Virus genome (UHGV): UHGV-0377591
Length of the DNA stretch: 44,209 nt
Strand: one strand, 5' to 3'
From: a virus
The notes under the pieces: generated by a model
What the model saw: the letters and a program-made list of their open reading frames with translations, nothing else
What the model was told of the DNA's origin: nothing
Database searches by the model: none
Position numbers and translations under genes: made by a program
Shown: in pieces, positions 1,220 through 36,803 of the stretch
Position numbering within the stretch: position 1 is the stretch's first letter
How the letters are laid out: each line of letters opens with the position of its first letter

Positions 1220-2457
1220 TTCTAAAAGAACGTGGCGGCAATAACGATGTGCACGCCTTACTGTCACCGTCAGGCGCTAAAAAGTGGCTAAGCTGCGCCG
1301 CATCGCTGGCCTGTGAAAAAGATATTCCTAACACATCTGGTAAAGACGCCGTTACAGGGACCGCGTGTCACACCATAGCCGAGGTCCATTTAAATCAGTA
1401 CATCAAAGGCACTGCGTTGCCGTTAGAGCGTGAAGTCGGTGCTTACGTGCTGGATGAAGGCAAAGGCCAGATTAAGGCGTTAATCAGCCCTATGAAAGGT
1501 GCGGTACTTATTACGGCGGACATGATTGAGCAGGTGCGTAAGTACACCGACTACTGCAAACCGATTATCGACGTAGCGACTTACGCCAAGCTGGAAATGC
1601 GCGTCAATCTTACAGAGGTGCTGCATCCGGGATATGAAGGCGTTGAGACGTTCGGGACCGCTGACCTTGTTGCCGTGCAGGAACTGGCGAACACCGACGA
1701 GCACATGCTCATTATTGGAGACCTTAAAACAGGACGGCACCGTGTTGAAGCGAAAGAAAACAAGCAGCTTATGCTTTATGCTCTCGGTGTTTATCGCCGA
1801 CTCAAGAGACGATATAACATCACAGTTGTTCGTCTGGTCATCTTCCAGCCGTACGCTGGGGGCGCGTCGGAGTGGGACATCTCGGTTGAAGGTCTGGAAC
1901 TGTTCGCTAAGTTCGCACGGAAACGTGCACTGTTAGCATTAGATGCGTATTTCCGTGGTAAAAAGAACCTTAAAGCGTCGGACTTCAAGCCGTCAGTAGA
2001 TGGTTGCCAGTGGTGTCGGTTCTCTGAACAGTGCGCCGCGCGTACAAAAACCGTTAACTCTGTACTGGCGGAAGAACTGGAAGATGACTTTGCGCCGGAG
2101 CTTACGCCGGAGCAACTCGTAACCGAGTATGAGAAGTTGCCGTTGTTGCGTCAACACATCGACAAGGTTGAGAAAGCTATGGCTGCCGCGTTGCATTCCG
2201 GTAAGAAAGTTCCGGGGTACAAGCTGGTCGAGGGTCGTCCTGGTAATCGTGCGTGGAAAGATGCAGAGAAAGTAGCAGAACTCTACGGCGACAAGCTGAC
2301 TAAAGAAGTGCTCATGACGCCGACAGAAGCTGTTAAAGTTATCCCGGAAGAAGAACTGAAAGACTTCATTACCCGTAAGCCGGGAGCGCCATGCGTCGCC
2401 GCGGCAGACGATAAACGGCCTGAGTGGGACAGTGTAACAGAGGAGGATTTAGAATGA
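1216..2457 (+). CDS. PD-(D/E)xK Cas4/RecB-like exonuclease with Fe-S cysteine cluster (DUF2800-type)
   Basis: Start moved to ATG 1216 (GGAG upstream). Motifs IGDLKTGR and QLMLYALG; C-terminal CQWCRFSEQC plus N-terminal Cys; ends VTEEDLE. Confidence 0.75.
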   Translation: MILKERGGNNDVHALLSPSGAKKWLSCAASLACEKDIPNTSGKDAVTGTACHTIAEVHLNQYIKGTALPLEREVGAYVLDEGKGQIKALISPMKGAVLITADMIEQVRKYTDYCKPIIDVATYAKLEMRVNLTEVLHPGYEGVETFGTADLVAVQELANTDEHMLIIGDLKTGRHRVEAKENKQLMLYALGVYRRLKRRYNITVVRLVIFQPYAGGASEWDISVEGLELFAKFARKRALLALDAYFRGKKNLKASDFKPSVDGCQWCRFSEQCAARTKTVNSVLAEELEDDFAPELTPEQLVTEYEKLPLLRQHIDKVEKAMAAALHSGKKVPGYKLVEGRPGNRAWKDAEKVAELYGDKLTKEVLMTPTEAVKVIPEEELKDFITRKPGAPCVAAADDKRPEWDSVTEEDLE

Positions 2458-2954
2458 GTTTAGTCCGGGAGCGTTTCATTTATGACAACGGGAAACTAAT
2501 CTATCGCCACAATACAAAAAGAATGTTAGCGGGTCATGAGGCAGGAAGCCTCCACCATTCAGGGTATGTGCAGATATACATTAATCGTAAGTCCTACCAA
2601 AGAAGCCGTTTAATATGGGAGTACCACAACGGCCCTATACCTGAAGGGTTTGAGGTGGACCATATAAATGCGATAAGAAATGATGACAGGATAGAGAATC
2701 TCCAGTTAATCGCCCATAGTGATAATGTGGCTAAAGGTGGTATTCAAACCGGAAGAAGTCATAACAAAAGTGGGTACACTGGCGTGTTTTGGCGCAAAAG
2801 CCACGGTAAATGGCAAGCTGGAATTACCGTAAACGGGCAATATCGTTACCTTGGACTATTCGAAACTCCTGAACATGCTAACGTGGCAAGAAAGAATTTT
2901 GAAAGTAATTTGCTAAAAGAAGTTGACTACCGAATAGCGAACTATTATAGTTAA
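2454..2954 (+). CDS. HNH homing endonuclease with AP2-like DNA-binding domain
   Basis: Start moved to ATG 2454 (AGGAGG upstream, ATGA overlap). HNH core EVDHIN…NDDRIENLQL; AP2-like GYTGVFWRKSHGKWQAGITVNGQYRYLGLFETPEHA. Confidence 0.8.
   Translation: MSLVRERFIYDNGKLIYRHNTKRMLAGHEAGSLHHSGYVQIYINRKSYQRSRLIWEYHNGPIPEGFEVDHINAIRNDDRIENLQLIAHSDNVAKGGIQTGRSHNKSGYTGVFWRKSHGKWQAGITVNGQYRYLGLFETPEHANVARKNFESNLLKEVDYRIANYYS
2923..2951 (+). promoter_or_regulatory. Early sigma70-like promoter (class I) embedded in the 3' end of the HNH gene
   Basis: TTGACT (2923-2928), 17-bp spacer, TATAGT (2946-2951); AATAG-CGAA-CTATT at 2933-2946. Confidence 0.55.
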
Positions 2955-3027: not shown

Positions 3028-3654
3028 GTGGGACTGAAATTAAATCTGCGTAAAGTAAACACTGCATGGGTTAACGTATTCGAACGCGAAAAAGACCGTG
3101 AAAACGATGATGGCTCAATCACTAAAGGCCAGTACAGCGCAACGATTATCCTGCCGTCTGACCATGCTCAAATCGATGCGCTCTACGACACCGTTTACGC
3201 GGTAGTTGAAGAAGCATTGGGCGCCGCCGCTGCCGAGAAGTGGATGAAATCCAACTACGGCGAAGGTAAGCACATGGATAAATGCGCGATTAAAGACATT
3301 GCCGAGCGCGACAATCCGTTTGAAGACTTCCCGGAAGGATTCTACTTCAAAGCGAAGGCGCAGAAACAGCCACTAATTGTAACCTCTAAAAAAGGTGAGA
3401 CACAGGTAGAGCAGGACTTCAATGCAGACGGCGAGCAGATTGAAGGTGAACAGGTTTACAGCGGCTGTGTTGCCAACGTAAGCGTTGAAATCTGGTTCAG
3501 CCAGAAATACAAAGTTCTCGGTGTTAACCTGCTGGCGATTAAATACGTCGGTGAAGGTAAGGCGTTCGGGGGTTCTAAAGTAGCCGCCAGCGTCGACGAC
3601 CTGGAAGACGACGAAGAGGGTGAAGCACCGCGCCGCGAACGTCGCCGCCGCTAA
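3028..3654 (+). CDS. Putative single-strand DNA-binding protein (DUF2815-like), 208 aa
   Basis: ORF track (GTG start after GAGGG). Sits between the Cas4-like exonuclease and the DNA polymerase; acidic C-terminal region DDLEDDEEGE. Function assigned from context and memory only. Confidence 0.5.
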   Translation: MGLKLNLRKVNTAWVNVFEREKDRENDDGSITKGQYSATIILPSDHAQIDALYDTVYAVVEEALGAAAAEKWMKSNYGEGKHMDKCAIKDIAERDNPFEDFPEGFYFKAKAQKQPLIVTSKKGETQVEQDFNADGEQIEGEQVYSGCVANVSVEIWFSQKYKVLGVNLLAIKYVGEGKAFGGSKVAASVDDLEDDEEGEAPRRERRRR

Positions 3655-35749: not shown

Positions 35750-35915
35750 TGGTATCACCCTTGTTCAGGTTGAAACGGTTGATAAGTTCGCGGCGGTGCT
35801 CTTGCCACTCTGCGAGTTGTTTTTCCAGGTGTTCGATCATCTCGTCCGCGCCTTTAAGCCACGCTTGCCCGGTCGCAGATTCGACGCATGCTTTTTCATA
35901 TTCGTTGTTAGTCAT
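35742..35915 (-). CDS. Hypothetical small protein, 57 aa (not in the ORF track)
   Basis: Manual translation MTNNEYEKACVESATGQAWLKGADEMIEHLEKQLAEWQEHRRELINRFNLNKGDTNA. Confidence 0.35.
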   Translation of the reverse strand: MTNNEYEKACVESATGQAWLKGADEMIEHLEKQLAEWQEHRRELINRFNLNKGDTNA

Positions 35916-36060
35916 TCTTTACGCTCTCCCCACATGCGATTTAGATACTTGTCCGGCCCCGGGAAACTGTTACGTTTCATCAGTTCCTCGCGTGTCGGGA
36001 ACGGGGTGTGACTGACTTTACGTCCTACACGTAATGGCTTGCTGGACCTTGTTCGCTCAT

Positions 36061-36086
36061 TTCTTCTCTCCTGCATAAGCTGCTTT
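36061..36086. repeat. 26-bp exact direct repeat TTCTTCTCTCCTGCATAAGCTGCTTT, second copy at 36323-36348
   Basis: Identical strings at both sites; each spans the end of an MKITDT-type small ORF. Confidence 0.85.
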
Positions 36087-36124
36087 CAGTTGCTTGTTTT
36101 TGAAGGCTTTGGTATCTGTGATTT

Positions 36125-36322
36125 TCATTCGTAGCCCTCAAACTTACGTAAATCGCCTTTAGTGATATACTTACGGCGGGCCAATATCGTGTCCACGTCA
36201 TAATCCATTAGTGCGCCCGTTTCTTCCCCATCTGGCGTCATACTCGGCCCGTAAACAGAGAGACCCATCTCATTAAGGTATGTCATGAACTTCTCTACCG
36301 TTTTCTTCTGGTAACGCTTCAT
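36125..36322 (-). CDS. Hypothetical protein, 65 aa
   Basis: ORF track; ATGA coupling on both sides. Confidence 0.5.
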   Translation of the reverse strand: MKRYQKKTVEKFMTYLNEMGLSVYGPSMTPDGEETGALMDYDVDTILARRKYITKGDLRKFEGYE

Positions 36323-36468
36323 TTCTTCTCTCCTGCATAAGCTGCTTTAAGTGCCTTCATCGCCGCGGTCCAGAACGCGTCCGCTGGAATATTGCTGCTC
36401 AGGTTACTTACGGCGATACGTGCCATCAGTTGTGCGTCTTCGAATGCTTCGGTGTCTGTGATTTTCAT
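36319..36468 (-). CDS. Hypothetical small protein, 49 aa (not in the ORF track); a truncated 23-aa copy lies at 36057-36128
   Basis: Manual translation MKITDTEAFEDAQLMARIAVSNLSSNIPADAFWTAAMKALKAAYAGEKK; the short copy reads MKITDTKAFKNKQLKAAYAGEKK. Confidence 0.35.
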   Translation of the reverse strand: MKITDTEAFEDAQLMARIAVSNLSSNIPADAFWTAAMKALKAAYAGEKK

Positions 36469-36473
36469 ATTCA

Positions 36474-36686
36474 TTATCCCGCGTTGAAGGAGCCAAGTAC
36501 GATTCCGCTTTCTTTCGGTTTCTTGATTTCGGTAACTTTTACGTCATCGTTGAAGTTATTCATGGTTATTGGGTCGTCCTTAGCGCGAACCAGGCACAAG
36601 GCTTCTTCTGGCGACTTAGCCCACACCACAAAAGAATCGTATTGGTCGTAATCACACCAGCTGGCTTCTACTAAATATAATTTCAT
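36474..36686 (-). CDS. Hypothetical protein, 70 aa
   Basis: ORF track; GGAG ribosome-binding site; TTGACT-17-TATATT promoter-like sequence on the minus strand at 36720-36748. Confidence 0.5.
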   Translation of the reverse strand: MKLYLVEASWCDYDQYDSFVVWAKSPEEALCLVRAKDDPITMNNFNDDVKVTEIKKPKESGIVLGSFNAG

Positions 36687-36769
36687 CTTCTCTACTCCGT
36701 TCTCGTTGTCGATGGAGTAAATATAGTAGGGTCGCAGGTAATAGTCAACTAGTCATTGCAGAAAATAGA

Positions 36770-36803
36770 TAAAAAAAAATCCCGGCTGGGTCAGGGCCGG
36801 GAT
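36770..36803 (-). terminator. Strong rho-independent terminator after the endolysin gene
   Basis: Stem ATCCCGGC/GCCGGGAT with a 9-nt loop, followed on the minus strand by T9. Confidence 0.85.

What the first reader, a model, noticed from the sequence alone, without database searches (positions are those of the whole stretch)
36057..36470. Partial tandem duplication marked by a 26-bp exact direct repeat
TTCTTCTCTCCTGCATAAGCTGCTTT occurs at 36061-36086 and 36323-36348, and GGT(A/G)TCTGTGATTTTCAT at 36107-36124 and 36453-36470. They define a 49-aa ORF (MKITDTEAF…KAAYAGEKK) and a 23-aa copy missing the middle (MKITDTKAFKNKQLKAAYAGEKK), on either side of the 65-aa gene 36125..36322. The short copy is followed by a fragmented reading frame, so this looks like a recent duplication/deletion hotspot.
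Basis: seen in the sequence. Interest (0 to 1): 0.4.

Follow-up and report, generated by a model that had tools for sequence, protein, structure and literature searches.

The report
Decayed gene copy from phage recombination
The repeat is real: it is the scar of an old recombination that put two alternative versions of the first gene module of a small-gene operon in tandem in an E. coli phage, leaving a shrunken, decaying second copy of one gene, which is an ordinary product of phage genome mosaicism.

Summary
The window is a Kagunavirus (an E. coli siphophage). All genes at this locus are on the minus strand, in one operon. The repeats are confirmed, with 0 expected by chance. The gene order is promoter, g70, g51, g65, g23, DUF2737.

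g23 is a copy of g51 that lost 78 nt in frame between two ACTGA pentamers. In 9 distinct relatives g65 is the first gene after the operon leader and is followed by a full-length g51. I infer that a non-allelic exchange joined the 3' end of g51 (GGAGAGAAGAA-ATGA) to the similar leader junction (GGAGTAGAGAAG-ATGA) in front of g65.

The event is not recent. The same 72-nt relic occurs in 8 loci (5 distinct sequences) with four different upstream contexts. Positions that are invariant in 49 full-length g51 alleles are mutated in the relic.

The exact 30-nt repeat reflects conservation of the Shine-Dalgarno/ATGA junction, which has 0-2 mismatches in all 40 surveyed loci. It does not reflect youth.

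The "fragmented frame" is a separate 4-nt slippage deletion (GCCAGCCA to GCCA) in the DUF2737 gene, plus a 6-nt in-frame deletion.

This is an ordinary mosaic scar of low interest, but it is unusually well resolved.

The parts
36720..36748 (-). Sigma-70-like promoter of the small-gene operon (TTGACT, 17 nt, TATATT). It lies just downstream of a hairpin plus T-run at about 36771-36803 that is annotated as a terminator at the homologous site in phages Schulenburg and Snoke.
   Evidence: 10 of 12 consensus matches; terminator annotation in relatives; sequence read.
36687..36700 (-). Operon leader ribosome-binding junction, ACGGAGTAGAGAAG followed by ATG. In this window it precedes g70. In g65-first relatives the same leader directly precedes g65.
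36474..36686 (-). g70, a 70-aa accessory gene (phrog_5444, function unknown). It is one of at least 8 alternative occupants of the slot between the leader and g51.
36319..36474 (-). g51, the full-length core gene (49 aa from ATG 36468, or 51 aa from ATG 36474; phrog_2180, function unknown). It is present in 590 phage records.
36319..36348 (.). 30-nt exact repeat, copy A. It comprises the last 9 codons of g51 (KAAYAGEKK), the GGAG Shine-Dalgarno sequence, and the ATGA stop/start overlap with g65. This is the recombination joint g51|g65.
36125..36322 (-). g65, a 65-aa accessory gene (phrog_35106, function unknown). In 9 distinct relatives it is the first gene after the leader and is followed by a full-length g51.
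36057..36128 (-). g23, the relic of a second g51 copy. It consists of 14 N-terminal codons plus 9 C-terminal codons and has lost 78 nt in frame. Its start overlaps the g65 stop (ATGA), and its stop overlaps the canonical DUF2737 start (ATGA).
36086..36090 (-). Deletion junction, the pentamer ACTGA. Full-length alleles that use CTG for the second Leu carry ACTGA at nt 39-43 and nt 117-121 of the gene, exactly 78 nt apart.
   Evidence: alleles of NRG857CP3, Schulenburg, L046, L047, L054, L056.
36057..36086 (.). 30-nt exact repeat, copy B. It is the 3' end of the relic and carries the Shine-Dalgarno sequence and ATGA overlap for the DUF2737 gene.
36111..36128 (.). 18-nt 5' repeat (start of g23). 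Its partner is at 36451-36468 (start of g51). The repeat extends to 48 nt at 79% identity.
36451..36468 (.). 18-nt 5' repeat (start of g51), the partner of 36111-36128.
36025..36060 (-). Truncated N-terminal fragment of the DUF2737 gene read from its canonical start (MSEQGPASHYV*). One GCCA unit of a GCCAGCCA tandem is missing at about 36035-36038, which shifts the frame.
35912..36076 (-). 54-aa ORF carrying the conserved DUF2737 body (PF10930, 29.4 bits against a cut-off of 25). It is now in frame with an ATG inside repeat copy B that has no canonical SD sequence. It also lacks 6 nt (ACAAGAACAAG shortened to ACAAG, about 35948-35952).

Best explanation
The repeat marks a fossil non-allelic recombination joint in the accessory small-gene operon of a Kagunavirus. 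This operon resembles the lambdoid nin region.

In this phage group the core order is promoter/leader RBS, [variable slot], g51, [variable slot], DUF2737 gene. All the genes are chained by ATGA stop/start overlaps. g65 is normally an upstream-slot gene, giving leader-g65-g51-DUF2737.

Inferred steps:
1. An exchange, probably between co-infecting phages, joined the g51 3' junction of one genome (...GGAGAGAAGAA-ATGA) to the similar leader junction of a g65-first genome (...GGAGTAGAGAAG-ATGA). The crossover lay in the shared ATGA, next to the shared AGAGAAG. This produced ...g51-g65-g51-DUF2737.
2. The second, redundant g51 then lost 78 nt in frame by slippage or microhomology deletion between two ACTGA pentamers. 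That gave the 23-codon relic g23.

What has happened since:
- The 5' half of the relic has drifted without protein-level constraint.
- Its 3' 18-30 nt stay invariant, because they are the Shine-Dalgarno/ATGA initiation region of the DUF2737 gene.
- The module then spread to several upstream contexts by ordinary homologous exchange.

In this particular phage the DUF2737 gene later suffered two further slippage deletions: 4 nt, which shifts the frame, and 6 nt, which is in frame.

Shown directly: the anatomy, both parental arrangements, the breakpoints, the single origin and the relaxed constraint. Inferred: the direction and mechanism of the exchange, and the reason for 3' conservation.
For: - The repeats are real and non-random.
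- The window is a Kagunavirus. Its closest backbones are Snoke and Schulenburg at about 94%.
- Slot architecture. In 40 loci, 19 have g51 directly followed by DUF2737, and the other 21 carry some 10 unrelated gene types there. The upstream slot is empty or holds g70, g65, or one of several 25-77-aa genes.
- g65-first arrangement with a full-length g51: Schulenburg, IMG/VR L007, and L046, L047/48, L050-52, L053, L054, L055, L056.
- Relic arrangement: the window, EP-B-K_E2, L043, L044, L045, L049, L057 and L058, always as a 72-nt relic.
- Clean breakpoints. All relic-type loci read ...GCAGGAGA(G/C)AAGAA|ATGA-g65. All g65-first loci read ...ACGGAGTA(G/T)AGAAG|ATGA-g65.
- Collinearity with Schulenburg apart from a 78-nt gap.
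- ACTGA direct repeats lie exactly 78 nt apart in full-length alleles.
- Relaxed constraint. I3, D5, E7, A8, D11 and A12 are invariant in 49 distinct full-length alleles, and each is changed in at least one of the 5 distinct relic alleles. D11N and A12E/K occur in all five.
- The last 9 codons of the relic are invariant at the protein level, and the junction motif shows 0-2 mismatches in 40 loci.
- g65 genes of the relic type cluster at 94-100% nt identity. L049 is the exception at 90-92%. They are 94-95% identical to the g65-first locus L054.
Against: - No intermediate with two full-length g51 copies flanking g65 was found in INPHARED, in IMG/VR or among the 12 look-ups in Logan/ENA assemblies.
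- The direction of change (g65-first to tandem) rests on parsimony, not on a rooted phylogeny.
- The microhomology at the joint is short: ATGA plus a 7-nt AGAGAAG that is offset by 2 nt. The exchange may therefore have been essentially illegitimate and only filtered by selection for preserved translational coupling.
- The relic ORF is intact in all 5 distinct sequences, which leaves room for some function. With 11 variable sites, however, this is also expected by chance (I estimate about a 0.6 probability of no stop codon arising).
- No canonical single-strand-annealing recombinase was found among the 10 window ORFs scanned. Only a PD-(D/E)XK/DUF2800 nuclease and an Enc34-type ssDNA-binding protein turned up.
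Confidence: 0.78

Rival explanations
1. Intragenomic tandem duplication. In this reading g51 was duplicated within one genome by slippage or unequal sister exchange, and g65 was later inserted between the two copies. One copy then decayed.
For: Two g51-derived segments flank g65. The locus shows several slippage-type deletions.
Against: - The g65-to-g51 adjacency, with the same ATGA junction, already exists in 9 distinct relatives where g65 is simply the first gene after the leader. A separate insertion of g65 is therefore unnecessary.
- No genome with adjacent duplicated g51 and no g65 was seen in 40 + 16 loci.
- The sequence immediately left of g65 switches cleanly between leader and g51 3' end, right at the ATG.
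Confidence: 0.07
2. g65 is a mobile cassette, such as a homing-endonuclease-like, transposon-like or integron-like element. On this reading it inserted at the g51/DUF2737 junction and generated a 30-nt target-site duplication.
For: A 30-nt exact direct repeat flanks the inserted segment. Three other downstream-slot genes in relatives also end in the g51-derived GCAGGAGAGAAGAAATGA (L021, L034, L038).
Against: - The segment between the repeats also contains the 5' 42 nt of g51, which a target-site duplication cannot explain.
- g65 has no nuclease, transposase or integrase domain: Pfam gives only a sub-threshold DUF4406 hit and PHROGs gives 'unknown function'.
- No terminal inverted repeats are present.
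- Most slot genes in relatives carry no such repeat.
Confidence: 0.04
3. g23 is a maintained functional element rather than junk. It would act as a short 'relay' ORF that keeps ribosomes translationally coupled from g65 to the DUF2737 gene, or as a micropeptide. This is compatible with the recombinational origin given above.
For: In all 8 loci (5 distinct sequences) the ORF is intact and in frame. Its ATG overlaps the g65 stop, and its stop overlaps the DUF2737 start. The last 9 codons and the SD sequence are invariant. The deletion was in frame.
Against: - The N-terminal 14 codons show about 7 nonsynonymous and 2 synonymous variable sites. Changes fall at positions that are invariant in 49 full-length alleles, which indicates neutral drift at the peptide level.
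- Survival of an open 23-codon frame through 11 substitutions is likely by chance.
- In the window itself the downstream gene is frameshifted, so the coupling has no intact target.
- The 3' conservation is equally explained by the SD requirement alone.
Confidence: 0.1
4. Assembly artefact. On this reading a mixed population of g70-g51 and g65-g51 variants was mis-joined at the shared g51 sequence.
For: Repeats of this kind can cause chimeric assemblies.
Against: The same arrangement occurs at 90-97% nt identity, not as identical sequence, in an independent isolate genome (EP-B-K_E2) and in contigs from at least five further sequencing projects. The relic carries its own lineage-specific substitutions.
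Confidence: 0.01

Closest known systems
Mosaic module junctions of tailed phages: exchange at gene boundaries by illegitimate recombination or by recombination at short conserved flanking sequences. Reviewed in Martinsohn, Radman & Petit 2008, PMC2327257; read.
   Same: The breakpoints lie exactly at gene boundaries. Short conserved sequences sit at the joints. Alternative unrelated genes occupy the same slot in related phages. Both parental arrangements are still found in circulating relatives.
   Different: The exchange here was non-allelic: a leader junction paired with an internal inter-cistronic junction. It therefore created a tandem partial duplication instead of a replacement. The host is a virulent Guernseyvirinae siphophage, not a temperate lambdoid. 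The shared sequence is a ribosome-binding/ATGA junction of about 15 nt.
Lambdoid nin-region operons: strings of small, translationally coupled accessory genes upstream of the late genes.
   Same: The operon contains DUF2737. Relatives are annotated with NinZ-like and NinH-like genes (Phage_NinH is a weak hit). The genes are 50-90 aa long and chained by ATGA overlaps, and gene content is highly variable between relatives.
   Different: Membership as a true nin region was not tested. No NinB, NinG or antiterminator-dependent arrangement was examined. The operon has its own sigma-70-like promoter and lies between the lysis and terminase genes.
Microhomology/slippage deletions between short direct repeats (replication slippage). 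This comparison rests on general knowledge.
   Same: All three deletions here lie between or within short direct repeats: 78 nt between ACTGA pentamers, 4 nt as loss of one GCCA of GCCAGCCA, and 6 nt as ACAAGAACAAG shortened to ACAAG.
   Different: Nothing unusual. The mechanism is inferred from the end-points only.
Morons and promoter/stem-loop cassettes of T4-type phages (PeSL). Recalled from memory and not checked in a paper.
   Same: Small accessory genes that come and go at fixed intergenic positions.
   Different: g65 has no promoter or terminator of its own. The repeat shows no significant RNA structure (z = -0.75). g65 is embedded by stop/start overlaps.

Membership tests
Phage mosaic junction produced by non-allelic recombination between related genomes | Both putative parental arrangements exist in related genomes. 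| tested here: met
   leader-(g70)-g51-DUF2737 occurs in L011, Snoke and others. leader-g65-g51-DUF2737 occurs in Schulenburg, L046 and L054.
Phage mosaic junction produced by non-allelic recombination between related genomes | The breakpoint is sharp, lies at a gene boundary, and has sequence similarity between the two partner sites. | tested here: met
   left of the g65 ATG the sequence is either the g51 3' end (8 loci) or the leader (9 loci). The two sites share AGAGAAG and ATGA.
Phage mosaic junction produced by non-allelic recombination between related genomes | Direct observation of the exchange, or of an intermediate with two full-length copies. | tested here: not met
   No such intermediate in INPHARED, IMG/VR or the assemblies looked up. 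A cross experiment is not possible with these tools.
Decaying redundant gene copy (pseudogene relic) | Loss of the purifying selection seen in functional homologues. | tested here: met
   six positions invariant in 49 full-length alleles are substituted in the 5 relic alleles. Each relic lies 4-9 differences from the nearest full-length allele over 42 nt, against a maximum of 6 and a mean of 2.9 among full-length alleles.
Decaying redundant gene copy (pseudogene relic) | Disrupted reading frame (stop codon or frameshift). | tested here: not met
   The 23-codon ORF is open in all 8 loci. The deletion is in frame. The sample is too small to tell selection from chance.
Mobile element with target-site duplication (IS, transposon or homing endonuclease gene) | Encoded transposase, integrase or homing nuclease, or terminal inverted repeats. 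| tested here: not met
   Pfam, PHROGs and PADLOC give no such domain for g65, g51 or g70. No inverted repeats at the ends.
Mobile element with target-site duplication (IS, transposon or homing endonuclease gene) | The duplicated flank is a single contiguous target sequence. | tested here: not met
   The duplicated material consists of two separated parts of g51, the 5' 42 nt and the 3' 30 nt.
Tandem repeat array | Head-to-tail copies detectable by TRF. | tested here: not met
   no array at a minimum score of 30.
Pfam PF10930 (DUF2737), for the gene downstream of the relic | Score above the gathering threshold. | tested here: met
   the 54-aa ORF of the window scores 29.4 bits (cut-off 25), and the intact relatives score 39 bits. 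The canonical start-to-body frame is broken in the window.
Known structured RNA or regulatory element | Rfam match or significant folding. | tested here: not met
   No Rfam family reaches its gathering score anywhere in the window. The fold z-score is -0.75.

The most novel reading that the evidence does not exclude
The conserved 15-18-nt junction GCAGGAGAGAAGAAATGA (SD sequence plus ATGA) may be more than a translation signal. It could act as a recurrent recombination 'linker' through which Guernseyvirinae phages swap small accessory genes.

Variants of this junction occur at the operon leader, at the end of g51, at the end of three unrelated slot genes (L021, L034, L038) and at the end of DUF2737 in some relatives.

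On this reading the 23-codon relic is kept open by selection, as a relay ORF that passes ribosomes from g65 to the DUF2737 gene.
Probability: 0.12. Interest if true: 0.45.

Novelty: new member of a known kind. Interest (0 to 1): 0.2.

Why it matters
This is a clean natural example of how phage mosaicism arises. Both parental gene orders, the recombinant, the exact breakpoint at a ribosome-binding/ATGA junction and the later decay of the redundant copy can all be read from extant genomes.

Three practical points follow:
- The 23-aa ORF should be annotated as a remnant of g51, not as an independent gene.
- The DUF2737 gene of this phage should be flagged as frameshifted.
- The 30-nt perfect repeats, 262 nt apart, predict a low-frequency deletion of g65 in phage stocks. 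That matters if such phages are used as engineered or therapeutic chassis.

None of this changes what is understood about phage biology.

Tried and rejected
- Exact search for the deletion junction CAACTGAAAGCAGCYTATGC(AGGAGA). IMG/VR gave 0 hits. JGI metagenomes gave one hit, which proved to be an unrelated chance match with no homology to any gene of the locus.
- Rfam over the whole window: nothing.
- RNA folding of the relic region: not different from shuffles.
- Tandem Repeats Finder: nothing.
- PADLOC: no defence or anti-defence family for g70, g51, g65 or DUF2737.
- Pfam and PHROGs: no function for g70, g51 or g65. g65 has only a sub-threshold DUF4406 hit at E = 0.1, which I disregard.
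- pN/pS between the window and EP-B-K_E2: g23 0.36 against 0.17-0.25 for the neighbouring genes. With only 5 differences this is uninformative. It was replaced by the multi-allele comparison.
- Search for a phage-encoded annealing recombinase. Only a DUF2800/PD-(D/E)XK nuclease and an Enc34-type SSB were found among the 10 ORFs scanned, so the enzyme behind the exchange is unknown.
- Distant g65 homologues in Queuovirinae (JenP1 and similar, about 54% aa identity) sit in an unrelated context and say nothing about the repeat.
- Not done: structure prediction or fold search of g51 and g65, since they would not bear on the repeat; the genome-contig scan; and a rooted phylogeny.

Full report
**Observation**

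The region was read directly and scanned for repeats.
None is expected by chance.
- The perfect repeat is 30 nt long, at 36057-36086 and 36319-36348.
- The 18-mer GGTRTCTGTGATTTTCAT is also present twice, but at 36111-36128 and 36451-36468.
- That second repeat extends to 48 nt at only 79% identity.

All the relevant ORFs are on the minus strand:
- g70: 36686..36474
- g51: 36474 or 36468..36319
- g65: 36322..36125
- g23: 36128..36057
- next, a broken gene, described under "The fragmented frame"

Every junction from g51 to the gene after the broken one is an ATGA stop/start overlap. g70 and g51 overlap as TAATG.

**Identity of the window and of the genes**

The window is a Kagunavirus (Guernseyvirinae), a virulent E. 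coli siphophage.
- Over the first 25 kb the best matches are phages Snoke and Schulenburg at about 94%.
- For this locus the best match is EP-B-K_E2 at 92%.

The locus opens an operon of small genes. A sigma-70-like promoter lies at 36748-36720, just after a hairpin plus T-run that is annotated as a terminator in Schulenburg and Snoke. The operon lies between the lysis genes and the terminase genes. In relatives it contains genes annotated as NinZ-like and NinH-like.

Family assignments:
- g51 is phrog_2180.
- g65 is phrog_35106.
- g70 is phrog_5444.
- All three are of unknown function.
- The gene after g23 belongs to Pfam DUF2737.

There is no Rfam family, no significant RNA structure, no tandem array and no PADLOC hit.

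**Architecture in relatives**

g51 is found in 590 phage records. I assembled 40 loci from INPHARED and IMG/VR and oriented them alike.

- In 19 of them g51 is followed directly by the DUF2737 gene, through the junction GCAGGAGAGAAGAAATGAGC.
- In the other 21, one of about ten unrelated 50-94-aa gene types sits in between.
- Upstream, g51 is either the first gene after a conserved leader (CGACAACGAGAACGGAGTAGAGAAG-ATG), or it is preceded by g70, by g65, or by one of several other small genes.

So g51 and DUF2737 are core genes flanked by two variable slots.

**Where g65 normally sits**

g65 is rare.
- In INPHARED it occurs only in EP-B-K_E2 and Schulenburg, plus distant homologues in Queuovirinae.
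- In IMG/VR it occurs on one contig.
- The large protein collection holds 29 homologues, of which I looked up 12.

In Schulenburg, the IMG/VR contig and seven further assemblies (L046, L047/48, L050-52, L053, L054, L055, L056), g65 is the first gene after the leader and is followed immediately by a full-length 49-aa g51.

Eight loci show the order g51, g65, 72-nt relic, DUF2737. They are the window, EP-B-K_E2, L043, L044, L045, L049, L057 and L058.

**The joint**

Left of the g65 start codon, the sequence is the g51 3' end (...GCAGGAGAGAAGAA|ATGAAGCG) in all eight relic-type loci. It is the leader (...ACGGAGTAGAGAAG|ATGAAGCG) in all nine g65-first loci.
- The two sites share AGAGAAG, offset by 2 nt, and the ATGA.
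- The exchange point must therefore lie in or at the ATGA.

This pattern fits a non-allelic exchange between the g51/DUF2737 junction of one genome and the leader/g65 junction of a g65-first genome. Such an exchange would give ...g51-g65-g51-DUF2737. The exchange itself is an inference. I found no intermediate with two full-length copies.

**The relic**

Relative to Schulenburg the window is collinear through g65 and into g51, except for a 78-nt gap.
- Full-length alleles that use CTG for the second leucine carry ACTGA at nt 39-43 and nt 117-121, exactly 78 nt apart.
- The relic reads CAACTGAAAGCAGC across the junction, at window 36090-36086.
- This is the signature of a slippage or microhomology deletion, and it happens to be in frame.

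All eight relic loci share the same 72-nt length and junction. All also share the derived changes D11N and A12E/K, which indicates a single origin.

**The event is not recent**

- The relic exists as five distinct sequences.
- It has four different upstream contexts: g70-g51; 46-aa gene-g70-g51; an 82-aa fusion protein containing g51; and g51 directly after the leader.
- In 49 distinct full-length alleles, residues I3, D5, E7, A8, D11 and A12 are invariant. Each is substituted in at least one relic allele.
- Over the first 42 nt, the relics lie 4-9 differences from the nearest full-length allele. Full-length alleles differ from each other by 2.9 on average.
- By contrast, the last nine codons of the relic are unchanged at the protein level.
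- The 24-nt 3' motif shows 0-2 mismatches in all 40 surveyed loci.

The perfect 30-nt identity inside the window therefore reflects constraint on the SD/ATGA initiation region and the conserved g51 C-terminus. It does not reflect a recent copy.

The relic ORF is intact in all cases. With only 11 variable sites that is not evidence of selection. A role as a relay ORF for translational coupling cannot be excluded.

**The "fragmented frame"**

In 37 of 39 other loci the DUF2737 gene is an intact ORF of about 51-55 codons beginning MSE (mostly MSEQG), and it starts at the ATGA. Alignment shows two deletions in the window:
- It lacks one GCCA of a GCCAGCCA tandem at about 36035-36038. This shifts the frame and gives MSEQGPASHYV*.
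- It lacks 6 nt of ACAAGAACAAG at about 35948-35952. This deletion is in frame.

The conserved body is now in frame with an ATG at 36076 inside the repeat, giving a 54-aa ORF that still scores above the Pfam threshold. No canonical SD sequence precedes that ATG (read directly), so the gene may be dead.

The same two deletions occur in L043, a Logan assembly of SRR3313046 that is near-identical to the window. The other relic-bearing phages have an intact gene. The frameshift is therefore independent of the duplication.

**Verdict**

There is a partial duplication with an internal deletion in a hypervariable locus. It is not recent, and it is not a simple duplication. It is an old, inherited and horizontally spread scar of non-allelic recombination between alternative gene modules.
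- This is a well-known kind of event in phage evolution (context: PMC2327257; Kagunavirus background: PMC11990801).
- Interest is low. The value lies in correct annotation and in a tidy, testable example of mosaic formation at a ribosome-binding junction.

Noticed in passing
window 35912-36076 (minus strand): The DUF2737 gene carries a 4-nt slippage deletion (GCCAGCCA shortened to GCCA, about 36035-36038) that shifts the frame, and a 6-nt in-frame deletion (about 35948-35952). The conserved body has come into frame with an upstream ATG inside the repeat, so the gene may be rescued or may be dead. The same state is seen in Logan assembly SRR3313046 (L043).
   Followed up: yes
L008 (IMG/VR UViG_3300045988_013548), about 1647-1660: In this relative the DUF2737 gene has a stop codon at codon 3 (ATGAGCTAA). 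The gene therefore appears to be dispensable or repeatedly inactivated in this phage group.
   Followed up: partly
L003 (Bas70) 1619-1867; also L019, L030 and L045: An 82-aa ORF fuses the N-terminal 33 residues of another upstream-slot gene (MSNVQTIAITEELEAKCIA...) to a complete g51. This is a second deletion or fusion scar at the same locus.
   Followed up: partly
L021, L034, L038 (IMG/VR), ends of the genes between g51 and DUF2737: Three loci carrying two unrelated slot-gene types end with the g51-derived ...AGEKK* / GCAGGAGAGAAGAAATGA. The same junction is therefore repeated on both sides of other inserted genes. In some relatives (L012, L023, L036) the DUF2737 gene itself ends in GGAGAGAAGAAATGA.
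   Followed up: partly
phage collection: Many phage records match only residues 3-32 of g51 (for example Bas74, Golestan and Salmonella phages). This suggests chimeric genes that share the g51 N-terminus but have a different C-terminus.
   Followed up: no
window 2424-2954 (plus strand): A 176-aa ORF with HNH_3 and a sub-threshold AP2 domain (a putative homing endonuclease). It lies between a DUF2800/PD-(D/E)XK nuclease gene (1201-2457) and an Enc34-type ssDNA-binding protein gene (3028-3654). Its presence or absence in relatives was not checked.
   Followed up: no
window 36319-36468 compared with L001 2278-2427: g51 differs by 12% at the nucleotide level between the window and EP-B-K_E2, whereas the flanking g70 and g65 differ by 4.2% and 2.5%. 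This suggests allele replacement inside g51 after the tandem formed.
   Followed up: partly
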